Part shown: one piece after another, positions 41,328 to 54,033 of the stretch
How the letters are laid out: every line of letters starts with the position of its first letter
How positions within the stretch are numbered: position 1 is the stretch's first letter
DNA from: an uncultured Chloroflexia bacterium
GTDB lineage: Bacteria > Chloroflexota > Anaerolineae > Anaerolineales > UBA4823
Length of the DNA: 64,000 bases
Direction of reading: 5' to 3'
Assembly (NCBI GenBank): GCA_963840255.1
Contig: CAWIYB010000003.1
Coordinates: 193,314-257,313 of the forward strand
Position numbers and translations under genes: made by a program
The notes under the pieces: generated by a model
Seen by the model: only the letters and a program-made list of their open reading frames with translations
What the model was told of the DNA's origin: nothing
The model's database searches: none

Positions 41328-41360
41328 ACTGATAAATCCAGGTTGGGTTTCGGGCGTACC

Positions 41361-41452
41361 TGTAGGGGCGACCCGCCCGATAGCGTCGAGAAAACGCGGA
41401 CAGCCAGGATTGTGCGGTAGAACGGAACGAAGATGGTCTTGAAGGGTCGCCC
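41361..41452 (+). repeat. 92-nt MITE-like element, family B, copy 1
   Basis: Termini GGGCGACCC...GGGTCGCCC are inverted repeats. By hand count, 79 of 92 positions are identical, ungapped, to the copy at 50856. Confidence 0.85.
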
Positions 41453-41774: not shown

Positions 41775-42302
41775 ATGGTTAGGGGTAAAAAACCAGTTAT
41801 ATTGGCGTCTTTATGCATATTGATTTTAGCATTTCCAATTTATGTTACCTGGGCAGCCAGTGCCGCTGGACATAGTTTTTACCTACCGATCATCAATAAG
41901 GCGAAATCCTCTACGGCGACGTATAGCACGGTCTATCCAACGGTGATCGTCCCAACGAATACACCTCAACCGCCAAATACTGGAAACATTATTATTACAA
42001 ACATTATATATGAAGGTTCAGGACAAAATGAACCGGATGAGTACGTAGACATCCGGAATATTGAACCATACGGAATTCAACTATCCAACTGGACCCTCCG
42101 TGATAATGCCAATCACGTTTTTACTTTCCCAAGTTTTTCTATACTACCAAATCAGACGTGCCGTGTGTATACAAACCAGGATCATCCTGAATATTGTGGG
42201 TTTAATTATGGATCGGGGAATCCCATCTGGAATAATTCTGGCGGAGATTGCGCGTACTTACGCGACGCATCTGATGCGTTGATTGATGAATATTGTTATT
42301 AA
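41775..42302 (+). CDS. secreted lamin-tail-domain (LTD) protein
   Basis: A signal/TM segment, then NEPDEYVDIRNIEPYGIQLSNWTLRDNANHVFTFPSFSILPNQTCRVYT...IWNNSGGDCAYLRDASDALIDEY, which follows the LTD pattern. Confidence 0.7.
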   Translation: MVRGKKPVILASLCILILAFPIYVTWAASAAGHSFYLPIINKAKSSTATYSTVYPTVIVPTNTPQPPNTGNIIITNIIYEGSGQNEPDEYVDIRNIEPYGIQLSNWTLRDNANHVFTFPSFSILPNQTCRVYTNQDHPEYCGFNYGSGNPIWNNSGGDCAYLRDASDALIDEYCY

Positions 42303-42633
42303 TGCGAAAGGGAAATTAGCCTGTAACCATTTATTTGGAAAGACGGTCCACTGGGAAGCCTAATCTTGCGGGGATTGTCTATTTGTAGAGAAGCCATGGT
42401 GAGGCGTATTAGCTTACTAGCAGGTTTTAACATAACTGTTTATTATCTTCTGCTTTTCCCCAAATAATAATTTTCCTTTTCGCAGAAGATTGTTTAAGTA
42501 TTTTTTCGTCTGATGATTATAACAACATATAAATAATTTATATTCGCTAGAATTAAATACTCGAATTAATTGTATTTATTCTTGCATTATCGGAAAGAAT
42601 GTTACACCAACGAACGTAAATGATCTATTTATT

Positions 42634-43371
42634 TTACGGAGTGATAGACTCAATAAATAGATCATAGGTATCTAATACATCTACTGTGCGATTACCAAAA
42701 CTCAAATTCCATTTCTGGAACTCGGGAAATCGGTCCCAAACTTTCTTGTAAAAATTTTTGAATATAAAACGGATAAAGTGCCCAATTGAAATTGGCCCAT
42801 AGACAGGAATTCTGCACTCTCGATTTATTGTTGTTAAATGCGAATTTGGGTGACCCTTTTTTTTAATATTAATATCATAATCAAATCTAATTGGTGATGA
42901 TGCACGTAAAGCACCTTTATAACCAGAAAAATCTAGATCACTTAAACAATTATTCAATTGATCAGCTTCATCCTCTAGGTACGTGTCAAAATATAATAAA
43001 ACATCATCACTTGTTTTGAATTTTTGTTCATCAATTTCAGAAAATAATATTGGAGAAGGATAATACCAGTAACGGTGCTTAATCAATATCTCTCCTTCAA
43101 ACAGACAACAAATCTGAAGTATTGAACCATCATATAACAATCCATTAAAGTAACGATTTTGAATTAGGTATCGATATTCCTGTATTGATGCAAATTCTCC
43201 ACCAAGAATTGTAAATAATGAGTGCGGAGCGCCAGCCCATGTTATTGATGTAGTGTTGTCACCTTCATTATCTCGAATGATAGCCGGTATATAGTCAACA
43301 ATTATTTCTTTGTCGAGAAGTAGTATGAATATTTTATTTATCTCATCCACCATCGAATTTTTATTCATCAT
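42634..43371 (-). CDS. uncharacterized 245-aa partner of the helicase (possibly DUF2290-like)
   Basis: AT-rich gene whose start overlaps the helicase stop codon by 11 nt. No TM segments and no motif I can assign firmly. Its size and context fit the small partner of Helicase+DUF2290-type pairs. Confidence 0.4.
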   Translation of the reverse strand: MMNKNSMVDEINKIFILLLDKEIIVDYIPAIIRDNEGDNTTSITWAGAPHSLFTILGGEFASIQEYRYLIQNRYFNGLLYDGSILQICCLFEGEILIKHRYWYYPSPILFSEIDEQKFKTSDDVLLYFDTYLEDEADQLNNCLSDLDFSGYKGALRASSPIRFDYDINIKKKGHPNSHLTTINRECRIPVYGPISIGHFIRFIFKNFYKKVWDRFPEFQKWNLSFGNRTVDVLDTYDLFIESITP

Positions 43372-45499
43372 TTTCTATATTCTTCAAGAGATCAAGTAAT
43401 TTTGAACGCAATTCTCGCGGTAAATTTTCCGCTGACATGTTTCCCTTTTGTATTTGTTCCACGAAATAGCTCAGGTTCTCCTCAAATTTTTGGTATTTTT
43501 CTCTTTCTTGAGGTGTCATATCGCGATAGAGTTTTCTCATCCTTTCAAGTTCGGGTTCAGTAGGTACTTTGAATGTTAAATTGTAATCATTCTTTTTCAC
43601 TTGCTCAATCTCTAATTTCAACCCTTTCATACCTGATCCACAACCAAATAAGCGTACCCAAGCTTTTGATCGAGTTATTGCAGTGAAAATAATATTTCTG
43701 CGTCTGGTGAGTTCTGTACCTTCAAAGGCATAATCCGAATTGAGTATATATACCATGGGAGCTTCGTTACCTTTCGCTCTATATATACTAGATATAGCTA
43801 TCGCATCATCATTGAATAATTCATCGAGGCTACTTGTAACACCGGCTAAGTGTCCAGGTATACCTAGTTCATTCAACTCTTTTAAAATAGTTACAGCTTC
43901 TTGTTTTGCGGTATATGCTTCCGGAAGGACAATAAGGATGTCGCGCATCTCTAGTTCACCTTCGCTCAAATCTATTTTTATTTGTTTAGCGACGGCTTTT
44001 GCTTGGGCAAATTTATCTGGGAATATCTCGCACTTAATACAATCATTTGGTTCAATTAAACGAGTTATATAGTCTGGATACGAACCCGGACGCCGTTTCA
44101 AATTAACAATATTTCCAGATAAAAACTGACCAGCAACAAGCTCGTATCCAACTTCCTCCCATAGTCCTTTGGGATCATTAAAATATTGAATTAATCCACC
44201 ATCATGGTAGATTCCAAAACCTAGCGCATGTGCGATAGCTAAAGCCCATGGAGTATTTCTGTAGCACACAGGCAAGACAATATCTTGGGATGGATTACCC
44301 TTGATATTCCGCAGCTGTGATACATGAGGATTTCCCTCCTTATCAGATCCGAACAATTCTGATGGATATAACATTGTAAAATTACTTAGATTTTGTAGTT
44401 CATCATAAGCATATATAATTCGTTTCGGTTTTTTCGCGGCTAAATATGCAAGTCTAAAAAAAGAACCGGGAAAGTCTTGAGCTTCATCCACAAGGATTAC
44501 ATCAAATATTGGTTCAAATGCATCCTCATTTATTTCTGTAATTAATTCAGAGCATACTGCATCAAATGCAAAGGCTGTGCTTGTTAACTGTTTTCCATAA
44601 TTAAAATTTTTTGGAGTGATACCTTGTGCTTTAGCCACTTCAGAATAAAATCCCGGTTGACTAACACCTCCCCAAGCGTGGATTATTCTCAAGCGGTTCC
44701 AATCCGGCTCATCATGAATCTGATCCCATGTAAACCGCCTAACCAATTCCTCAAACTGTTGATACAGAGACCGTGTTTGAAAAGTTATAGCTATCGTCCA
44801 ATCCTCATGTATTGCATACAGATATGCGGCCTTGAGAGCTAACACAATTGTTTTCCCAGAGCCGGCCAAGCCGCGGATGCGTTGAACACCATCTGGAGTT
44901 TCAATAGCTGCGTTATTCTGCCATTTATCAAGGTTGTATACTTCTTTTTCAATTGTTTTTAATATTGCGCCTCTTGAGTCATCTTTCTTAATATTTGATC
45001 TTTTTCTTGGAGGCCTAACGTTTGTAACTCTCTCGATAGCGGCATTAATATCTTTTAGCAAATTGTTATCAATCGGATCAAAGCATGTAATTAATTCAAG
45101 AAAGTTATCTAGTCCAGAAATTAATAAATCCTCTTCTTGGATGATTTCGTGAATTTCCGGAACCAAAGTAACAATTTTCACAGGAAATGCTAATTCCCTA
45201 CCATTCATAAGAGATTTATAGCCCTTAAGTTTTATTTCGAGGATTCGATAAAGATCATCTTGTTTTTGCCTAATCGGTTCAAAATTAATTTGTTCCGCGG
45301 TTCTATCATCGAAATCGATGACTATAAGCCCATGTTCTTTACAGATTAATAGAGCGTCTATCACAATTTTATTATCCAAATCTGTTAGAACGGGATATCC
45401 GATGAATAACATCCCATTCAAGTCAGCCTCAGAAAGGAGCGTAATCAATTGCTCTACAGCAAGGGGATTTTTCTTCTGACCAACGGATAAATTAAGCAT
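43361..45499 (-). CDS. NERD-like N-terminal domain fused to an SF1 (UvrD/Rep-like) helicase/ATPase
   Basis: The N-terminus NKIVIDALLICKEHGLIVIDFDD resembles the NERD core but lacks the Lys. Other motifs are Walker A GLAGSGKT, motif II VILVDEAQDF, PVCYRNT, SIYRAKGNEAPMVYI and IFTAITRSKAWVRLFG. Confidence 0.7.
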   Translation of the reverse strand: MLNLSVGQKKNPLAVEQLITLLSEADLNGMLFIGYPVLTDLDNKIVIDALLICKEHGLIVIDFDDRTAEQINFEPIRQKQDDLYRILEIKLKGYKSLMNGRELAFPVKIVTLVPEIHEIIQEEDLLISGLDNFLELITCFDPIDNNLLKDINAAIERVTNVRPPRKRSNIKKDDSRGAILKTIEKEVYNLDKWQNNAAIETPDGVQRIRGLAGSGKTIVLALKAAYLYAIHEDWTIAITFQTRSLYQQFEELVRRFTWDQIHDEPDWNRLRIIHAWGGVSQPGFYSEVAKAQGITPKNFNYGKQLTSTAFAFDAVCSELITEINEDAFEPIFDVILVDEAQDFPGSFFRLAYLAAKKPKRIIYAYDELQNLSNFTMLYPSELFGSDKEGNPHVSQLRNIKGNPSQDIVLPVCYRNTPWALAIAHALGFGIYHDGGLIQYFNDPKGLWEEVGYELVAGQFLSGNIVNLKRRPGSYPDYITRLIEPNDCIKCEIFPDKFAQAKAVAKQIKIDLSEGELEMRDILIVLPEAYTAKQEAVTILKELNELGIPGHLAGVTSSLDELFNDDAIAISSIYRAKGNEAPMVYILNSDYAFEGTELTRRRNIIFTAITRSKAWVRLFGCGSGMKGLKLEIEQVKKNDYNLTFKVPTEPELERMRKLYRDMTPQEREKYQKFEENLSYFVEQIQKGNMSAENLPRELRSKLLDLLKNIENDE

Positions 45500-45694
45500 T
45501 TAAACCACTCCTGTTAGGATAAAAGCAATTTAAATTACAATCGGGTAGTTATTAATGAAATCATTTTTATCTATGCCTAATAATAAATAACGTTTCTCAA
45601 TAAAGCGCACTATCTGCTGTGTGCCTTAAAAATAAATACATCCAAATTTAGAGTGTGAATCAACTTTTTACGGCAATTGCCATCAATTTATTTA

Positions 45695-45799
45695 TCAGTT
45701 TAAAATGGTCTTACGCGGCACGCTCTCGTTGCGCGTCCCACCATACCGGATCATCTGGTCGACCTTGGCATAATACTGCTGTATTAACTGAATGGACAT
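45695..45799 (-). pseudogene. 34-codon remnant resembling the N-terminus of large RM/DNA-methyltransferase-helicase proteins
   Basis: MSIQLIQQYYAKVDQMIRYGGTRNESVPRKTILN*. It sits in a locally G+C-richer patch inside the AT-rich island. The assignment is from memory of the pattern only. Confidence 0.25.
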
Positions 45800-45988
45800 G
45801 GTGTTGTCTTATCGAAAAGAAATTCGGATGGAGAATTATCGGCTGATTCCAGTATAGCATGATTCTTATAACACCCTCAACTTCCTCTCATACTCTTACT
45901 GGAATGATCACTAATTGGGATATATCTATTAGTTGATTTATTTTTCCCCGTTAATTCACCTTTATTTTGGTCATTGGCAAGGCTTTTA

Positions 45989-46912
45989 TTATTTTTCTGT
46001 ATTCTTATGTAATTGAATTAACAATCGTATAAAATTTCCAGTCAGATAAATCATAAACTCAATCTCCTCAGGAGACCAATAATCACCATGTTTCACATTC
46101 TCATTTTGATATATTCGGTAATTTTGGAATAATAACTCATTGAACATATTAACAATCTGTTGATTAATATTTTTTTCTTTTATCCAATATAGTAGTTCCA
46201 TTTTTTGGTTCTCTAATGTCTTCTTATTACCGAGAATGGTTCTTAGTAATTGCTCAAGAGCTAGTCTTAAATTATCCAGCAAATTGCGATATTTATCTAC
46301 ATCTCTCATGCCATAAATTAGAAGTGCTTCTTCAAAATGCTTTAAAACTTTTGGATAATCTTCCAACCATAGAAGATTATCGTTAACCAATTTATCGTCA
46401 AGTAGTTTGGCTCCAGCCGGGTAAAATAAAATTCCTGAATCGCGCTTTATAAGTCTGACATTTAGAGATGGACTTAGGTAAATGGCTTTCTGTACATCTT
46501 CAATAAAGGCATCAACGATATTCCGTGCTTCTGATTCTTCTTCTAGCACCCAAACTAAATATTGTAAAGCAGTAATTAATTGAATAAGCGATGAAGAGTT
46601 TTTTAATGTTATATAGACAATATTTTGAATAAATATACTGTTTTGTTGTTCTTCTTCCCATAACTGGAGTACTGCTCTGCTACCGATAACCGATCTAGGT
46701 TGTATAGGACTACCCATTAAGTATGCGAATTTATCACTAACACCTCTTCTAGATAACAAAAAATTTCCAAGTATCTTATCGGTAGAAAAAAGAATATGAT
46801 TTTGAAAAGATTCAAAATCATTTCTTTCCGAATAATTGATATTCCATCTGCTCCGAAATTGTTTTATTTTTTTTGAAATTTCCATATGAAACCAATTCCT
46901 TTCAATTTTCAA
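45989..46912 (-). CDS. uncharacterized alpha-helical protein (orphan in the island)
   Basis: A 307-aa AT-rich ORF with no TM segments. An alternative start lies at 46885 (MEISKK). No catalytic motif recognized. Confidence 0.5.
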   Translation of the reverse strand: MKIERNWFHMEISKKIKQFRSRWNINYSERNDFESFQNHILFSTDKILGNFLLSRRGVSDKFAYLMGSPIQPRSVIGSRAVLQLWEEEQQNSIFIQNIVYITLKNSSSLIQLITALQYLVWVLEEESEARNIVDAFIEDVQKAIYLSPSLNVRLIKRDSGILFYPAGAKLLDDKLVNDNLLWLEDYPKVLKHFEEALLIYGMRDVDKYRNLLDNLRLALEQLLRTILGNKKTLENQKMELLYWIKEKNINQQIVNMFNELLFQNYRIYQNENVKHGDYWSPEEIEFMIYLTGNFIRLLIQLHKNTEK

Positions 46913-47353
46913 GGATTTCTAGTATAGATTCGACGACTTATTCTCTTGATCAATCCTACCCTCAGAGTATACATATTGTATAGAGTATTATTAGTTTCAA
47001 GCTTTGTCAACCACGAAAAATTTCTTTGAAAAATATAATCTAGATTATTTATAGCCGTAAAAAGTCAGAAATCATAATAATATAATAAACCTTAAATCTT
47101 CATCGCCCTTGTGTTATCAGAATTAGTAATCTCCCAGGTCGGTCAGCGTTCTCCCATATCGCTATAAGTACTTTTGATCATCAAAATCCGTATTTGCGTC
47201 AATATAAAAACCCTGGTGAAGAATCAGCATTTTTCTTTAAAAAGCGAACTTTTTCTCCTGTAAATTCCTTCTTCAACTCGATATAATTCCATATTAAATG
47301 GTATCATATGATTAATAAGATATCTAGAATCGCTATATATCGAGGGGTTTCCA

Positions 47354-49267
47354 ATGGAATCAAAACAATTTAATAAGGCTCCTTTACTATCACGCTATGT
47401 GGTTTTTATCCTCGTTGCCTTTAATTTGCTCGTTTTAATCATCGGGCTATGCATATTATTTTTTTCAAAAAACCCATTCCGTCTTCCTCTCCTGCTTATT
47501 ATTTTCTTTTCTCTACTAATCTCATTATTTGGTGTTGCAATATTGAGTTATTTTTACAATAAGCAAGTTACCGTAAAAGAAAAACAGCATATATTACGTA
47601 CTTCTAAAAAGTTGGATTCGGAAATCGGGAGAATTGCGAGTGATGTTAATCTTCATATTACTAAAAAGTCTAATCTGCTTCAAGACAGAGATGCCGCATT
47701 ATCTAAACGCAGGAATGAATTCTCACAAAAAATTCGACATCTAAATAGGCATCGAAACGAGATTTCCTTATCTGAAAGTAATGAGATATCTTCGACCCTA
47801 TCTCACCTTCAGAATTCTTATATCAATCAGGGTTTACGTTTAGCCTTAATTAAGGATGCCAATATCTCAGGGATTGGGCCCAAGTTCAAGGAGCGCCTTA
47901 TAAAAAATGGTGTTATATGTGCCGCTCAGGTATCCTCTGAACGACTGAGTAACATTCCAGGGTTTGGAGAAGCAAAAGTTAGCAGTGTTGTTGCATGGCG
48001 GAGATATGTTGAAGCTGGCTTAGCTTCTTCTAAACCTGTTCGCGTGCCACCGGAAGTTGAAGAAAAGATTAGATCAAAACATGCGCAAGAACAATTAAAA
48101 GTCAATCAGGAAGAAAATATTGCTAAATTAGACCTGGAGACTGATTTAACAACGATTAAACAACGATATGATCATATGATCGTCGAAAACGATCAGGCCA
48201 GGTCGTTGGCTATAAAAAAACTAGCCACACATAGAGAAAATGCTGTTTATCTTGGAAACCAACTTAGGCTTTACGAGAAAATCACTCCAATAAGCTATTT
48301 GAGACACTTACTGTCTATTGATTCATCAATATCTGGTAAATTATTATTTGGCGCATACTCCTCAGTATTAATCTTGATTCCTCTTACCTTCATATTCCTA
48401 GGTACTGGGACAACTTTTTCTATGATCGTTGACTCGATTCCAACCCATACTTCAACACCAACAATAACACCTACAGCTACTTCAACCCAAACTCACACTC
48501 CAACATATACATTTACACCCTCAAAAACTCCAACGATAACCCTCACACCTACTCCATCTAACACTCCCACGATTACTCCCACTCCAACAATAACACCCAC
48601 CCCTACTCCAACTCTTATTCCTACCGAGACTCAAAGACCTTTGCCAACTTTACCCATCAATGTCGAATCTTGTATACCACGAAATACCCTTCGTCAGGTT
48701 GGTTATGTTGTCGGGGTAACAGACGGAGACACCATTGTGGTCACTCTCGAAGATGGTAATAATTATGAGGTTCGTTATATTGGTATGGATACTCCTGAAC
48801 AAGGAGATGTTGGTTATGGACCAGCTACGGTCCGAAATACCGAGCTTGTCTATGGAAAGAACGTTACATTGGTTCGTGATGTCTCTGAAATTGATCAATA
48901 CAAACGTCTTCTTCGATATGTGATCGTCGGTAACACGTTTGTAAATTACGAATTAGTAAAATCTGGTCTGGCGACCGCATATCGATATCCGCCGGATGTT
49001 TCATGTGCCTCAGCGTATTCAGAGGCTGAAAACTATGCAAGAACAAATCAGTTAGGTTTGTGGATTCCTGCTCCTGCTCCACTTCCGACAAATCCTCCGG
49101 GCAATGGTGGTGGAAATTGTGATCCTGCCTATCCGACAGTGTGTATACCTTCTCCACCACCTGATCTTGATTGCCCAGATATTCAATATCGTCGATTTCA
49201 AGTCCTTCCGTCTGATCCGCATAATTTTGACGGGGATCATGATGGAATCGGTTGCGAGTCAGGTTAA
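47354..49267 (+). CDS. membrane-anchored modular nuclease: 2 TM, coiled coil, HhH, TM, PT linker, SNase (thermonuclease) domain, Excalibur-like Ca-binding tail
   Basis: HhH-like GIGPKFKERLIKNGV...IPGFGEAKVSSV, a PT linker TPTITPTATSTQTHTPT...TPTPT, an SNase core VTDGDTIVVTLEDGNNYEVRYIGMDTPE...YKRLLRYV...ELVKSGLA, and the tail DGDHDGIGCES. Confidence 0.75.
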   Translation: MESKQFNKAPLLSRYVVFILVAFNLLVLIIGLCILFFSKNPFRLPLLLIIFFSLLISLFGVAILSYFYNKQVTVKEKQHILRTSKKLDSEIGRIASDVNLHITKKSNLLQDRDAALSKRRNEFSQKIRHLNRHRNEISLSESNEISSTLSHLQNSYINQGLRLALIKDANISGIGPKFKERLIKNGVICAAQVSSERLSNIPGFGEAKVSSVVAWRRYVEAGLASSKPVRVPPEVEEKIRSKHAQEQLKVNQEENIAKLDLETDLTTIKQRYDHMIVENDQARSLAIKKLATHRENAVYLGNQLRLYEKITPISYLRHLLSIDSSISGKLLFGAYSSVLILIPLTFIFLGTGTTFSMIVDSIPTHTSTPTITPTATSTQTHTPTYTFTPSKTPTITLTPTPSNTPTITPTPTITPTPTPTLIPTETQRPLPTLPINVESCIPRNTLRQVGYVVGVTDGDTIVVTLEDGNNYEVRYIGMDTPEQGDVGYGPATVRNTELVYGKNVTLVRDVSEIDQYKRLLRYVIVGNTFVNYELVKSGLATAYRYPPDVSCASAYSEAENYARTNQLGLWIPAPAPLPTNPPGNGGGNCDPAYPTVCIPSPPPDLDCPDIQYRRFQVLPSDPHNFDGDHDGIGCESG

Positions 49268-49400
49268 ATACCTATATGGTGTGTCTTCCAGGCTTGTAGC
49301 TAGTAATATTCTAGCTGATAAGAATCCTACCGTTAATCGAAGCAGCATTCACGAGGACAGCCCTCACCCCTCCTCCTGATATAATATTCCCACATCCAGT

Positions 49401-50252: not shown

Positions 50253-50860
50253 ACATTCATGACTATCAGAAACTGTATTTACAGTACCCGTTCACGAATC
50301 TAATCTGCATCCTTCCCTTCATCATTCTTATCACCCTGGGGGCGGTGCTGCAGTGGCAGCTGATCAGGACGGAGGTGCCTGTCTCCCGCTGGTGGATCGC
50401 TGCCCCCACCCTCGCCGGCTTCCCCTTGCTGATCGGGGTGGTCATCCGTACGAGCTGTAGTGATTGCTCTGCCTTCAGCTACCCCTTCTTGCTGCTGGCT
50501 CAATCCGACCAGATTGAGGGCATTGTGTGGTGGACCATATCCTATTTTCTGATCCTCGGAGGCATGCAGTGGCTGATCTTGTGGTATGCCTTACGCATTT
50601 CCATCGTCTGGTCCATCTTCCCCCTGGTAGGAGCAGCTGTGGCAGACATCCTGTTTTTCCCCATGGTTTATGTGCTGATGTTTTATCTTTCCCCGCCGCG
50701 GATCATCATTGCCAGTTCGCCGCTCATTATTTTGGTCACTGCAATACTATCGCTGTTGGCGTCCATATTTAGCCTTGTGACGGGGTTCTACCTGCACCGG
50801 GCGATCCGGAAGCGGAAGACCAGCCTTGTGCAAGCGGTGCCTGATCAGGTGGATCTGTAG
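50243..50860 (+). CDS. polytopic membrane protein of unknown function
   Basis: Overlaps the upstream gene by 10 nt. Its stop codon lies inside repeat B copy 2. Confidence 0.5.
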   Translation: MFLNIHDYQKLYLQYPFTNLICILPFIILITLGAVLQWQLIRTEVPVSRWWIAAPTLAGFPLLIGVVIRTSCSDCSAFSYPFLLLAQSDQIEGIVWWTISYFLILGGMQWLILWYALRISIVWSIFPLVGAAVADILFFPMVYVLMFYLSPPRIIIASSPLIILVTAILSLLASIFSLVTGFYLHRAIRKRKTSLVQAVPDQVDL

Positions 50861-50947
50861 GGGCGACCCACTCGATAATGTCGAGAAAAAGCGGATAACC
50901 AGGATCGTGCGCTAGAACGGAACGAGGATTATCTTGAAGGGTCGCCT
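50856..50947 (+). repeat. 92-nt MITE-like element, family B, copy 2
   Basis: See copy 1. Same orientation. Confidence 0.85.
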
Positions 50948-52389: not shown

Positions 52390-54033
52390 TTAGTAATCCA
52401 TGCCACCACCACCAGGCGGCATCATCGGGGCCTTTTCCTTCTCAGGCACGTCGGTGACGAGCGCTTCGGTGGTCAGGATCATGGCGGCGATGGAAGCTGC
52501 ATTCTCGAGCGCACCACGGGTGACCTTGGCGGGGTCGATGACACCGTCTTTGATCATGTCCACGTAGGCTTCGCTGATCACGTTGAAGCCGATGTTCTTG
52601 TTCTTCTTATCCTTCTGGGTGCGGCGGACGGTATCCAAAATGACGGAACCATCTTTGCCGGCGTTCTCGGCGATCTTGCGCATCGGTACTTCCAGCGCCT
52701 TGCGGACGATGCTGACGCCGATCTGGGCATCTTCATTGTCCATCTTCAGGCTTTCAAGGGCTTTCATGGCGTTGATCAGGGCAACTCCACCACCCGGCAC
52801 GATCCCGTCTTCGACGGCGGCACGGGTTGCAGACAGGGCGTCTTCCACGCGATGCTTCTTCTCTTTCAGCTCGGTCTCGGTGGCTGCACCCACACGGATG
52901 ATGGCGACGCCGCCCGAAAGCTTGGCCAGGCGTTCCTGCAGTTTTTCCTTGTCATAATCGCTGGTGCTTTTGTCGATCTCCACACGGATCTGGTCGATGC
53001 GGCCCTTGATCAGGGCTGCGTCACCCTTGCCACCCACCACGGTGGTGTCGTCCTTGGTGATGACCACCTTCTCGGCACGACCGAGGTCGGCGATGGTGGT
53101 GCTTTCCAGCTTGCGGCCGGTCTCTTCGGAGATCACCTGACCATTGGTCAGCACGGCGATGTCTTGCATCATAGCCTTGCGGCGGTCACCGAAACCAGGG
53201 GCTTTGACGGCGACAGCGTTGAGCATGCCGCGGATCTTGTTCAGCACCAGGGTAGCCAGGGCTTCACCGTCCACGTCCTCGGCGATGATCACCAGGTCAC
53301 GCTTGCCGATCTGCACCAGCTTCTCGAGCAGCGGGACAATATCAGCCGCGGCGGAGATCTTCTTGTCGTAGATCAGGATGTAAGCGTCTTCGATGGAGGC
53401 TTCCATGTGCTCGGGGTCGGTGATGAAATAAGGTGAGACGTAGCCACGGTCGAACTGCATACCTTCGACGTACTCGGTCTCGAATTCCAGGCCCTTGGAT
53501 TCTTCCACGGTGATGACGCCGTCTTTACCGACCTTGTCCATCACATCGGCGATCAGCTCACCGATCACACGGTCTTGGGCGGAAATGGAGGCCACATTGC
53601 CGATCTCAGCCTTGGTGGTCACTTCGATGGCATCCTCGCCAATCTGCTTGACCACGGCCTTGGTGGCGGCCTCGATGCCGTGCTTGAGCAGCATCGGGTT
53701 GAAGCCGGCAGCCAGGTTCTTCATGCCTTCGGCGACGATGGCGTGGGCGAGCACGGTGGAGGTGGTGGTTCCGTCACCGGCAATATCGTTGGTCTTGGTG
53801 GCGGCTTCCTTGAGTAATTGGGCACCCATATTCTCAAACGGGTCTTCCAGCTCAATTTCCTTGGCGACGGTGACGCCGTCATGGGTGATGGTGGGTGAGC
53901 CGAATTTGCGGTCTAACGCCACGTTGCGTCCCTTAGGACCAAGCGTGGTGGTGACGGCGGTGGCAAGGACGTCCATACCCTTGCTCAGCTTGCGGCGGGC
54001 TTCTTCAGAAAATTGCAGTTGTTTTGCTGCCAT
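52390..54033 (-). CDS. groEL: chaperonin GroEL
   Basis: [16 protein letters not shown]..., [12 protein letters not shown], and the C-terminal [11 protein letters not shown]. Confidence 0.98.

What the first reader, a model, noticed from the sequence alone, without database searches (positions are those of the whole stretch)
42634..45499. Translationally coupled NERD-like/SF1-helicase gene plus a 245-aa partner: candidate two-gene anti-phage system
- These two AT-rich minus-strand genes overlap by 11 nt (GAAAATGATGAATAA), which implies co-translation.
- The large protein combines a degenerate NERD-like core (IDALLICKEHGLIVIDFDD, with no Lys in the D..ExK position) with a complete SF1 motif set: GLAGSGKT, VILVDEAQDF, CYRNT, YRAKGNEAPMVYI and ITRSKAW.
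- The small partner has no TM segment and no motif I can name.
- The architecture, size and island context match helicase-plus-small-effector defence pairs. From memory, the closest described type is the Helicase+DUF2290 system found in prophage/satellite hotspots.
- If the partner is not DUF2290, the pair would be an undescribed variant.
- The mechanism of such pairs is unresolved, and an occurrence in this lineage would be far from the enterobacterial examples.
Basis: partly seen in the sequence, partly recalled or inferred. Interest (0 to 1): 0.8.

Follow-up and report, generated by a model that had tools for sequence, protein, structure and literature searches.

The report
Known Helicase+DUF2290 anti-phage gene pair
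This is a new, rather divergent copy of the already described "Helicase+DUF2290" anti-phage gene pair, carried on a strain-variable low-GC island in an uncultured Anaerolineales (Chloroflexota) genome. It is ordinary as a find, but nobody yet knows how this system works, and its small partner has a fold unlike any solved structure.

Summary
**Observation:** exact. Two minus-strand ORFs (helicase 43361-45499, 712 aa; partner 42634-43371, 245 aa) overlap by 11 nt and lie in a 35%-GC island within a ~55%-GC genome.

**Identity:**
- The partner is DUF2290 (Pfam E=2e-33).
- The helicase matches PADLOC's Helicase-DUF2290 model end to end (759 bits).
- So this is a member of the Helicase+DUF2290 system of Rousset et al. 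2022, shown to act against T7. It is not an undescribed variant.

**Family behaviour:**
- In 76 of 77 evaluable genomes from many phyla, a helicase of this family is followed directly by DUF2290.
- The two proteins co-evolve (r=0.92).
- Flanking genes vary.

**In this lineage:** three sibling Anaerolineales genomes carry other cargo at the same site.

**NERD:** the NERD-like N-domain lacks the catalytic Lys across the 50 aligned helicases. All SF1 ATPase motifs are intact.

**DUF2290:** it gives a confident model (pLDDT 90) with no structural neighbour in PDB or BFVD. It shows no domain fusions and has an R-x-D-x-D...H-P-x-x-H core.

**Mechanism:** none has been published. I infer an ATP-driven DNA-sensing helicase complexed with a DUF2290 effector.

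**Verdict:** new member of a known kind; modest interest.

The parts
43361..45499 (-). Helicase gene (712 aa) of the Helicase+DUF2290 system
   Evidence: ORF. PADLOC PDLC03002 'Helicase', positions 1-705 of 707, 759 bits. Pfam UvrD_C_2 8e-12 and UvrD-helicase 5e-5. AF2 model pLDDT 87. Best PDB matches are SLFN11, Dna2, PcrA, UvrD and Upf1.
45155..45499 (-). N-terminal NERD-like (PD-(D/E)xK-like) domain, residues ~1-115, with a degenerate catalytic motif
   Evidence: The model shows alpha-beta-beta-beta-alpha-beta topology. D42 and D48 are always D or E; D62 is D in only 68% of sequences; the Lys position (D64) is variable and never conserved as Lys. There is no Pfam NERD hit for the window protein or for any of 31 homologous N-domains. 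Rousset's HHpred on the validated Klebsiella helicase gives NERD at 98.1% probability for residues 11-112, and the window protein aligns to the E. coli exemplar through this region.
43640..44932 (-). SF1 helicase/ATPase core, residues ~190-620, with all motifs intact
   Evidence: These residues are invariant in 50 homologues and present here: Q194; G210/G213/G215/K216/T217 (Walker A); D338/E339/Q341/D342 (motif II); Y413/R414/N415; R574/K576/G577/E579; R610.
43364..43639 (-). C-terminal helical extension of the helicase, residues ~621-712
   Evidence: The AF2 model shows helices at 621-636, 648-657, 663-684 and 695-710. No family assignment was found.
42634..43371 (-). DUF2290 partner gene (245 aa, long-form subclade with a ~23-aa insertion)
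   Evidence: Pfam PF10053 E=2.2e-33 and PADLOC PDLC02998 E=1.4e-33. The alignment shows the insertion is shared with the closest relatives (P0004 in the displayed rows). AF2 model pLDDT 90, pTM 0.88. No structural neighbour in PDB or BFVD.
42748..42894 (-). Conserved DUF2290 core motif region, residues 160-208: P-I-R-F-D-Y-D ... H-P-x-S-H ... C-R-I-P-V ... helix with N206
   Evidence: Invariant in 66 sequences: R162, F163, D164, H174, H178, C186, R187, I188, P189, V190. R-x-D-x-D...H-P-x-x-H also lines up in a very divergent reversed-order variant from Rousset's supplement, although the statistics are weak.
43361..43371 (-). 11-nt stop/start overlap (ATGATGAATAA) between the helicase and DUF2290 genes
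   Evidence: Direct reading of the sequence. Overlapping or abutting junctions are the rule in the family.
45508..45512 (-). Shine-Dalgarno-like AGGAG, 8 nt upstream of the helicase start codon
   Evidence: Direct reading of the sequence.
42620..42665 (.). Perfect 14-nt inverted repeat (18-nt spacer) spanning the DUF2290 stop codon; a possible transcript-end hairpin
   Evidence: the repeat finder pair I13. The consensus terminator scan did not call it. Its function is inferred only.
42303..49375 (.). Strain-variable low-GC cargo segment (hotspot) that carries the pair
   Evidence: GC 0.26-0.47. Synteny with sibling genome L083 holds up to window ~49375 and resumes at ~42303, with different genes in between.

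Best explanation
**What it is**
The two genes are a complete, apparently functional copy of the Helicase+DUF2290 anti-phage system (DefenseFinder Rst_HelicaseDUF2290; PADLOC Helicase-DUF2290). The pair was acquired horizontally as part of a 7-kb low-GC cargo segment. That segment sits in a strain-variable hotspot next to groES/groEL in an Anaerolineales (Chloroflexota) genome.

**Shown here**
- Family membership of both proteins.
- Fixed gene order and a tight, usually overlapping junction across phyla.
- Co-evolution of the two proteins as a unit.
- Intact SF1 ATPase motifs.
- A NERD-like N-domain that has lost the catalytic Lys in all 50 aligned helicases.
- A stand-alone DUF2290 with a fold that has no solved relative and a sharply conserved polar motif.

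**Inferred mechanism**
1. The pair is co-translated and forms a stoichiometric complex.
2. The helicase is the ATP-driven DNA sensor and motor. It loads on phage DNA ends or replication intermediates. Its degenerate NERD-like domain serves as a DNA- or partner-binding module, not as a nuclease.
3. DUF2290 is the effector. Through its R-x-D-x-D...H-P-x-x-H site it is most likely a metal-dependent phosphodiesterase or nuclease, and it is activated or delivered by the helicase to stop phage DNA replication.

**My probabilities**
- Membership in the known system: about 0.95.
- 'Helicase senses, DUF2290 executes': about 0.45.
- 'DUF2290 is a nuclease': about 0.3.
For: **Membership**
- Pfam DUF2290 E=2.2e-33.
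- PADLOC Helicase model matched end to end at 759 bits, and PADLOC DUF2290 models.
- An E. coli plasmid pair hits the same models.
- 35% identity (E=4e-72) to Rousset's E. coli P2-hotspot helicase, and 30% identity between the DUF2290 proteins.
- Anti-T7 activity of the Klebsiella homologue (PMC9122126).

**The pair is a unit**
- 76 of 77 evaluable loci carry DUF2290 directly downstream.
- 71 of 73 junctions overlap or lie within 15 nt.
- Pairwise-identity matrices correlate at r=0.92; 0 of 999 Mantel permutations reach this.
- There is no conserved third gene.

**Mobility and defence context**
- Low-GC island.
- Three sibling genomes with 97-99% identical GroEL lack the pair. At the same site they carry DUF4365, or IS66 plus DpnI, or almost nothing.
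- A PDC-S32 candidate lies next door.
- The closest relatives sit beside BREX or type I R-M genes.

**Functional state**
- Every residue that is invariant in each alignment (50 helicases, 66 DUF2290 proteins) is retained in the window's proteins.

**Division of labour**
- The NERD catalytic Lys is absent in all 50 aligned helicases.
- DUF2290 has invariant R, D, H, H, C and R residues. Its R-x-D-x-D...H-P-x-x-H core also lines up in a divergent variant.
Against: **On the mechanism**
- No biochemical or structural data exist for any member. The papers I found say the roles were 'not explored' (PMC10952713) or only hypothesise a Hachiman-like mode.
- DUF2290 has no detectable similarity to any nuclease or other enzyme, by sequence or by fold. 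Calling it a nuclease rests only on the chemistry of its conserved residues.
- DUF2290 evolves faster than the helicase (mean identity 34% against 46%). That would also fit a phage-contacting sensor.
- A relocated catalytic Lys in the NERD-like domain cannot be excluded.

**On activity**
- A lactococcal homologue gave no protection against the phages tested.
- Deleting the system in P. aeruginosa had only phage-specific effects.
- Nothing is known about phages of this uncultured host.
- Promoter-like sites are no more frequent than in shuffled sequence.
Confidence: 0.7

Rival explanations
1. The roles are reversed. DUF2290 is the sensor or specificity subunit that recognises a phage protein or DNA feature. 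The NERD-helicase is the effector, either as a nuclease-helicase (like Nhi) with a relocated catalytic Lys, or as a motor that dismantles phage replication complexes without cutting DNA.
For: - DUF2290 diverges faster than the helicase (34% against 46% mean identity), as expected for a component in an arms race.
- It resembles no enzyme.
- The helicase's best structural matches are nuclease-helicase fusions, SLFN11 and Dna2.
- D42 and D48 of the NERD-like domain are always acidic.
- Some family members, such as B. cereus VD115, have Q-K at the degenerate position.
Against: - The (D/E)xK Lys is missing and D62 is only 68% conserved across the family.
- No member's N-domain reaches Pfam NERD.
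- The invariant His, Asp, Arg and Cys cluster of DUF2290 looks like a catalytic or metal site rather than a variable recognition surface.
Confidence: 0.2
2. The pair is not autonomous. It is an accessory or back-up module of BREX or restriction-modification systems, for example one triggered when these are inhibited. In this window it is an orphan that has lost its partner system.
For: - The closest relatives are attached to BREX or R-M genes:
  - L086: PglZ-BrxA-helicase-DUF2290.
  - L089: PglX-GmrSD-PglZ-BrxL-helicase-DUF2290.
  - L087 and L088: type I R-M plus GmrSD.
- In L082 and L055 the pair is nested exactly between two halves of PglX.
- The validated system acts on T7 specifically.
Against: - The Klebsiella pair alone protected E. 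coli.
- Only 1 of the 80 genome loci has BREX genes within 6 kb, and about 7 have HsdR-like genes.
- Overall the neighbours are heterogeneous.
- No BREX or R-M gene is detected anywhere in the window.
Confidence: 0.1
3. It is a housekeeping or element-maintenance DNA repair helicase (UvrD/helicase IV-like) with an accessory protein, unrelated to phage defence.
For: - There are weak Pfam and NCBIfam similarities to UvrD, PcrA and helicase IV.
- The pair is found on plasmids next to replication and stability genes, as in E. coli CP057903.
Against: - It is absent from three sibling genomes at the same locus.
- Its composition is foreign to the host.
- Its context varies and is often defence- or MGE-related.
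- A homologue has a demonstrated anti-T7 phenotype.
- Similarity to PcrA is marginal (E=0.009 over 64 residues).
Confidence: 0.03

Closest known systems
Helicase+DUF2290 (Rst_HelicaseDUF2290 in DefenseFinder; Helicase-DUF2290 in PADLOC); Rousset et al. 2022, from a P4-like satellite of Klebsiella pneumoniae SB5961
   Same: - Both proteins belong to the same families.
- Same gene order, and the helicase is about 710 aa.
- Same domain layout: NERD-like N-domain, then SF1 core, with UvrD-type hits at equivalent residues (about 191-256 and 578-630 in Rousset's HHpred table; 195-240 and 568-617 here).
- The location is also a variable hotspot.
   Different: - The host is an uncultured Anaerolineales bacterium, not an enterobacterial satellite or prophage. 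No integrase or phage gene was noted on the island.
- Only 35-39% (helicase) and 30% (DUF2290) identical to E. coli copies.
- The DUF2290 belongs to a long-form subclade with a ~23-aa insertion and scores low on the family models (114-116 bits, against 245-277 bits for the two PADLOC DUF2290 models in the E. coli copy).
- No phenotype is known for this copy.
Nhi (nuclease-helicase immunity; single protein)
   Same: It combines a nuclease-type N-terminal domain with an SF1 helicase in anti-phage defence. There is a weak PADLOC hit to the Nhi model (E=3.9e-5).
   Different: The hit covers only helicase motif II (residues 323-373). Nhi is a single gene with no DUF2290 partner. From my own knowledge, not tested here, Nhi has an active nuclease domain, whereas the NERD-like motif here is degenerate.
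Hachiman (HamA nuclease + HamB helicase)
   Same: It is a two-gene logic in which a helicase is paired with a small effector. HamB senses DNA state and controls the HamA nuclease (PMC12278908, abstract). This is the template for my inferred mechanism.
   Different: HamB is a Ski2-like SF2 helicase (PMC12839542), whereas this helicase is SF1. HamA is, from my own knowledge, an unrelated DUF1837 PD-(D/E)xK nuclease. No PADLOC Hachiman model was hit.
Gabija (GajA OLD-type nuclease + GajB UvrD-like helicase)
   Same: A UvrD-like SF1 helicase subunit works with a separate effector. There are weak GajB hits (best E=1.7e-6).
   Different: The GajB hits cover only short motif stretches. There is no GajA (ATPase-TOPRIM) gene. 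The partner is DUF2290.
Schlafen-11 / Dna2 type nuclease-helicase proteins (structural analogues)
   Same: They are the best PDB structural matches to the helicase model (SLFN11 E=6e-17, Dna2 E=1e-13). Rousset's HHpred top family for the validated helicase is DUF2075, which from my own knowledge is the Schlafen-type helicase family.
   Different: They are eukaryotic proteins. Global TM-scores are only 0.3-0.4, sequence identity is 13-14%, and the N-terminal nuclease domains differ.

Membership tests
Helicase+DUF2290 system (Rousset 2022; PADLOC; DefenseFinder) | A protein of Pfam family DUF2290 (PF10053) | tested here: met
   PF10053 E=2.2e-33, 115.8 bits against a cut-off of 25. PADLOC PDLC02998 E=1.4e-33 and PDLC02999 E=2.7e-23.
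Helicase+DUF2290 system (Rousset 2022; PADLOC; DefenseFinder) | A ~700-aa SF1 helicase of the specific DUF2290-associated family | tested here: met
   PADLOC PDLC03002 matched over positions 1-705 of 707, E=1.1e-228. The same model is hit by the E. coli plasmid copy. 35% identity (E=4e-72) to Rousset's E. coli exemplar.
Helicase+DUF2290 system (Rousset 2022; PADLOC; DefenseFinder) | The two genes are adjacent, co-oriented, with the helicase first | tested here: met
   11-nt overlap. The same arrangement is found in 76 of 77 evaluable loci.
Helicase+DUF2290 system (Rousset 2022; PADLOC; DefenseFinder) | Intact ATPase/helicase motifs | tested here: met
   All columns that are invariant in 50 homologues, including Walker A K216, motif II D338/E339, R414, R574 and R610, are present.
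Helicase+DUF2290 system (Rousset 2022; PADLOC; DefenseFinder) | NERD-type N-terminal domain on the helicase (HHpred 98.1% in the validated protein) | tested here: inconclusive
   hmmscan finds no NERD hit for the window protein or for 31 homologous N-domains. However, the domain is homologous to that of the E. coli exemplar, it has an alpha-beta-beta-beta-alpha-beta topology, and Rousset's HHpred calls NERD in the validated helicase. HHpred was not available here.
Helicase+DUF2290 system (Rousset 2022; PADLOC; DefenseFinder) | Protection against phage infection | not testable with these tools
   This is shown only for the Klebsiella homologue against T7. Results for other homologues were negative or phage-specific.
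NERD nucleases (PF08378; PD-(D/E)xK superfamily) | Catalytic D...(D/E/Q)xK signature | tested here: not met
   The sequence reads D48...D62-F63-D64. The Lys position is variable (D, E or L) and is never conserved as Lys in 50 homologues. D62 is D in only 68%.
NERD nucleases (PF08378; PD-(D/E)xK superfamily) | Significant match to the Pfam NERD profile | tested here: not met
   No hit at E<=0.1 for the full protein. None of 31 isolated N-domains hits NERD at E<=10.
Hachiman | HamA (DUF1837) plus an SF2 HamB helicase | tested here: not met
   No Hachiman model is among the PADLOC hits of either protein. The helicase is SF1.
Gabija | GajA (ATPase-TOPRIM) next to GajB | tested here: not met
   There are only short, weak GajB motif hits. 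No GajA-type model is hit anywhere in the window.
BREX-embedded accessory module | BREX core genes (pglX, pglZ, brxC, brxL) flanking the pair | tested here: not met
   The window-wide PADLOC sweep finds no BREX or R-M model. The feature is met in relatives L082, L055, L086 and L089.

The most novel reading that the evidence does not exclude
DUF2290 is an enzyme with a previously unseen fold: a metal-dependent nuclease or phosphodiesterase built around R-x-D-x-D...H-P-x-x-H, and licensed by a NERD-like SF1 helicase. The window's long-form subclade, whose closest relatives are attached to BREX or R-M loci, together with family members nested inside pglX, acts as a second-line module. It would fire when restriction or BREX is blocked, or when phage DNA ends or replication intermediates appear.
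Probability: 0.15. Interest if true: 0.6.

Novelty: new member of a known kind. Interest (0 to 1): 0.27.

Why it matters
**As an occurrence, it matters little.** PADLOC or DefenseFinder would call it automatically, and the family is already known from many phyla.

**The value lies at the family level.** Helicase+DUF2290 is experimentally validated, yet none of the papers I found gives a mechanism. This analysis adds several testable points:
- DUF2290 gives a confident model with no structural relative in PDB or BFVD, and no domain fusions among the best 150 of 1,951 clusters.
- Its most deeply conserved core is R-x-D-x-D...H-P-x-x-H, which supplies concrete mutagenesis targets.
- The NERD-like domain has lost its catalytic Lys in all 50 aligned helicases, so a nuclease activity, if there is one, probably lies elsewhere.
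- Helicase and partner co-evolve tightly as a mobile two-gene unit.
- Some copies are nested precisely within a split pglX of BREX loci.

It also identifies a strain-variable cargo hotspot next to groESL in an Anaerolineales lineage, which may be worth mining for further defence genes.

Tried and rejected
**DUF2290 function**
- Sequence search against PDB, with the single protein and with a 66-sequence profile: nothing.
- Foldseek of the pLDDT-90 model against PDB and BFVD: best E=0.2-0.4, TM<=0.26.
- Pfam scan of all 66 members at E<=10: no consistent second family. The lone Tyr-DNA phosphodiesterase hit (E=0.09) occurs in one member only, so I rejected it.
- Exhaustive profile search for fusion proteins: all of the best 150 are stand-alone proteins of 160-250 aa.

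**NERD domain**
- hmmscan of the full protein and of 31 isolated N-domains, plus a profile search against PDB: no support.

**Source organism and contig**
- Exact-protein look-ups of both proteins in the contig index failed.
- The cluster look-up gave no names.
- The window's genome was not among the genome-contig hits.
- Lineage was obtained from GroEL instead.

**Island boundaries**
- I considered the 102-nt direct repeat flanking the island as an att site and rejected it. It recurs at other places in sibling genomes, and its right copy lies outside the variable segment. It shows no RNA-structure signal (z=-0.7) and no Rfam hit.

**Other attempts**
- The 34-codon GC-rich ORF upstream of the helicase looked to me, from memory, like a methyltransferase N-terminus. 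It has no Pfam hit and no match in any fetched locus, so this is unverified.
- The search for related loci with the DUF2290 alignment failed because the alignment is too divergent.
- tblastn of the helicase against the phage collection found no match.
- Promoter and terminator consensus scans were not enriched over shuffles.
- L075 as a case of 'effector swapping' is not convincing. Its neighbour is an HATPase-type type II REase with Dcm, so it may simply be an adjacent R-M system after loss of DUF2290.


Full report
**1. The observation**

The helicase ends ...GAA AAT GAT GAA TAA. The partner starts at ATG ATG AAT AA within it, giving an 11-nt overlap. The overlap is 8 nt if the second ATG is used, as in the public 244-aa gene call P0001. 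An AGGAG lies 8 nt before the helicase start codon.

All quoted motifs are present at residues 47-65, 210-217, 334-343, 412-416, 573-585 and 608-614. The genes lie in a low-GC stretch (0.26-0.47) inside a genome of about 0.55 GC.

**2. What it is**

It is.
- The 245-aa protein hits Pfam PF10053 with E=2.2e-33, and PADLOC's two DUF2290 models.
- The 712-aa protein matches PADLOC's 'Helicase' model PDLC03002 over positions 1-705 of 707 (E=1e-228, 759 bits).
- An annotated E. coli IncI plasmid pair hits the same models (988 and 277 bits). It is 39% (helicase) and 30% (DUF2290) identical to the window's proteins.
- The helicase is 35% identical (E=4e-72) to the E. coli P2-hotspot 'NERD/UvrD_C_2/AAA_19 | DUF2290' exemplar printed in Rousset's supplement. 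The alignment runs through the N-terminal domain.

The system was described by Rousset et al. 2022 (PMC9122126). An ATP-dependent helicase plus a DUF2290 protein from a P4-like satellite of Klebsiella pneumoniae SB5961 specifically inhibited T7. The pair was also seen in Vibrionales and Bacillales prophage hotspots. This is therefore a member of a known, validated system.

**3. Is the pairing real and general?**

Using a 50-sequence helicase alignment, I fetched 80 loci from species-representative genomes of many phyla. These include Chloroflexota/Dehalococcoidia, Actinomycetota, Cyanobacteria, Bacillota, Planctomycetota, Acidobacteriota, Spirochaetota and Pseudomonadota.
- Of the 77 loci with enough downstream DNA, 76 have a DUF2290 ORF on the same strand, beginning within a few tens of nt of the helicase stop.
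- With heuristic start assignment, 39 of 73 junctions overlap (most often by 4 nt). Another 32 of 73 have gaps of 0-15 nt.
- Pairwise-identity matrices of the two proteins correlate at r=0.92, and 0 of 999 Mantel permutations reach that value.
- DUF2290 diverges faster, with mean identity of 34% against 46% for the helicase.
- The longest ORFs flanking the pair are heterogeneous: housekeeping, defence-type and mobility genes, none recurring in more than four loci.

So the pair is a self-contained, mobile two-gene module.

The single exception is L075. There a bona fide family helicase (992 bits) is followed by an HATPase_c_3 'type II REase', a Dcm methylase and a possible Vsr-type ORF. I read this as loss of DUF2290 next to an R-M system, not as a proven effector swap.

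**4. Host and island**

GroEL in the window (52390-54033, minus strand) is 96% identical to proteins named 'Anaerolineales bacterium' and 'Chloroflexi bacterium RBG_16_54_11'.

Three sibling contigs with 97-99% identical GroEL share the groES/groEL side. L083 and L084 also share the TPR and NiFe-hydrogenase genes. All three differ on the other side.
- blastn shows synteny between L083 and the window down to window ~49375, resuming at ~42303 in the LTD gene (88% identical).
- Between those points the window has 7.1 kb: a TM-HhH-SNase protein, a PDC-S32-like protein, the helicase and DUF2290.
- L083 instead has a DUF4365 protein, an ion channel and an SNase-LTD gene. L085 has IS66 and DpnI. L084 has almost nothing.

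The pair is thus cargo of a strain-variable hotspot and was acquired from a lower-GC donor. A window-wide PADLOC sweep finds no BREX or R-M genes.

**5. Anatomy of the helicase**

The AF2 model is confident (pLDDT 87).
- *N-terminal domain.* Residues ~1-115 form an alpha-beta-beta-beta-alpha-beta unit.
  - In 50 homologues, D42 and D48 are always D or E.
  - The position that would be the (D/E) of (D/E)xK, D62, is D in only 68% of sequences.
  - The Lys position is variable and never conserved as Lys.
  - Pfam NERD is hit neither by the protein nor by any of 31 isolated N-domains.
  - Rousset's more sensitive HHpred gives NERD at 98.1% probability for residues 11-112 of the validated homologue.
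  - So the domain is NERD-like by descent, but it fails the catalytic-signature test.
- *SF1 core.* Residues ~190-620 retain every invariant motif residue.
- *Structural matches.* The best are SLFN11 (E=6e-17), Dna2, PcrA, UvrD and Upf1. This agrees with Rousset's top HHpred family, DUF2075.
- *C-terminal region.* About 90 helical residues at the C-terminus have no family assignment.

**6. Anatomy of DUF2290**

The alignment of 66 sequences shows invariant R162, F163, D164, H174, H178, C186, R187, I188, P189 and V190. Y66, D81, G82, H99, R100 and N206 are nearly invariant.
- The AF2 model is confident (pLDDT 90, pTM 0.88). It is an alpha+beta protein.
- It has no meaningful neighbour among 350,542 PDB chains (best E=0.41) or in BFVD (best E=0.21).
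- A profile search against PDB sequences returns nothing.
- No second Pfam family recurs among members.
- An exhaustive profile search of 1.84 billion representatives finds 1,951 clusters. All of the best 150 are stand-alone proteins of 160-250 aa, so there are no informative fusions.
- A very divergent, reversed-order variant from Rousset's supplement aligns only over R-x-D-x-D...H-P-x-x-H and replaces CRIPV. This points to that motif as the essential core, although the statistics are weak (E=0.026).
- The window's protein belongs to a long-form subclade (243-249 aa) with a ~23-aa insertion before the motif.

**7. Mechanism**

None of the papers I found reports a mechanism.
- The helicase's role 'was not explored' (PMC10952713).
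- A 2024 preprint only hypothesises a Hachiman-like mode.
- A lactococcal copy was inactive against the phages tested.
- Deletion of the system in P. aeruginosa had phage-specific effects.

From the anatomy I commit to the following model.
- Co-translation yields a complex (inferred from the overlap and the co-evolution).
- The helicase uses ATP to sense or translocate on phage DNA, with the degenerate NERD-like domain acting as a binding module (inferred).
- DUF2290 is the effector, most likely a metal-dependent phosphodiesterase or nuclease (inferred from residue chemistry only).

My probabilities are about 0.45 for this division of labour and about 0.3 for nuclease chemistry. The main rival reverses the roles and is favoured by DUF2290's faster divergence.

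**8. Context seen in relatives**

The closest helicase relatives sit beside other defence systems:

| Locus | Helicase identity | Context |
|---|---|---|
| L086 | 77% | PglZ-BrxA-pair |
| L089 | 63% | PglX-GmrSD-PglZ-BrxL-pair, with an integrase nearby |
| L087/L088 | 64% | pair next to type I R-M plus GmrSD |

In the Thioflavicoccus plasmid (L082) and in Halomonas (L055), the pair lies exactly between two halves of PglX, at model positions 1-658 and 666-1291 of 1332. Such adjacency is recurrent but not general: BREX genes occur in 1 of the 80 genome loci and HsdR-like genes in about 7. The validated pair also works alone. I therefore treat functional coupling to BREX or R-M as a minority hypothesis.

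**9. Verdict**

This is a new, divergent member of a known kind, in a lineage where it had not been pointed out, although the family is already pan-bacterial. Interest is modest. It comes mainly from the family-wide open question of what DUF2290 does, for which this analysis supplies concrete residues and constraints.

Noticed in passing
window 45989-46912 (-): A 307-aa protein lies directly upstream of the helicase on the same strand. Its C-terminal half (residues 150-304) matches PADLOC phage-defence candidate PDC-S32 (E=9e-35). The N-terminal half has no assignment. This is a second possible defence gene on the same island.
   Followed up: partly
window 47354-49267 (+): A 637-aa protein has, from Pfam, a weak helix-hairpin-helix hit (E=0.0016), a staphylococcal-nuclease domain and a weak Excalibur motif, and it also hits PADLOC SNc+LTD. 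By eye, the N-terminus looks hydrophobic and is followed by a coiled-coil-like stretch and a Pro/Thr-rich linker. The linker is encoded by imperfect tandem repeats at 48439-48612. Only its SNase part (residues 370-581) resembles the SNase-LTD gene at the same position in siblings (47-48% identical), so it may be a chimeric allele.
   Followed up: partly
window 45700-45801 (-): A comparatively GC-rich 34-codon ORF (MSIQLIQQYYAKVDQMIRYGGTRNESVPRKTILN) sits in the AT-rich spacer between the PDC-S32-like gene and the helicase. It looks like the remnant of the N-terminus of a larger gene. I guessed a DNA methyltransferase from memory, but it has no Pfam hit and no match in any fetched locus.
   Followed up: partly
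window 41350-41451 and 50845-50946 (+): A ~102-nt direct repeat (84% identical) with GGGGCGACCC...GGGTCGCCC ends has only these two copies in the window, and they bracket the island. Copies also occur at other positions in sibling genomes (L083 11793-11902 and 21341-21449; L084 13461-13598). It is therefore a dispersed intergenic element, not an att site. It shows no RNA-structure signal and no Rfam hit.
   Followed up: yes
window ~42303-49375; L083 14041-19608; L085 12600-18500: The site next to groES/groEL is a cargo hotspot in this Anaerolineales lineage. Siblings with 97-99% identical GroEL carry a DUF4365 protein plus an ion channel (L083), IS66 transposase plus a DpnI-family endonuclease (L085), or almost nothing (L084), in place of the helicase-DUF2290 island.
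   Followed up: partly
L082 1984-8887 (Thioflavicoccus mobilis plasmid NC_019941) and L055 1-5531 (Halomonas sp. PR-M31): The helicase-DUF2290 pair is nested exactly between two halves of the BREX methyltransferase PglX. The order is BrxC, PglX-N (model positions 1-658 of 1332), helicase, DUF2290, PglX-C (666-1291), then PglZ and BrxL. My keyword look-ups in the 2026 BREX survey found no mention of this.
   Followed up: partly
L075 5737-11847: This is the only family helicase (992 bits to the PADLOC model) without a DUF2290 partner. It is followed by a 652-aa HATPase_c_3 protein that matches 'type II REase' models, a C-5 cytosine methylase and, by eye only, a Vsr-like ORF.
   Followed up: partly
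window 42620-42665: A perfect 14-nt inverted repeat with an 18-nt spacer straddles the DUF2290 stop codon. It may be a transcript-end hairpin, but the terminator scan did not call it.
   Followed up: no
window 41775-42302 (+) and L083 19609-20136: A small secreted-looking Lamin-Tail-Domain protein (175 aa) forms the conserved left border of the hotspot. It is 84% identical in sibling L083, yet has only ~0.41 GC.
   Followed up: no
L087 153-2213: In the 193-kb metagenome contig that carries a 64%-identical pair, a phage capsid-family gene lies about 6 kb upstream. The pair is flanked by type I R-M and GmrSD genes. This may be a prophage-borne defence cluster.
   Followed up: no
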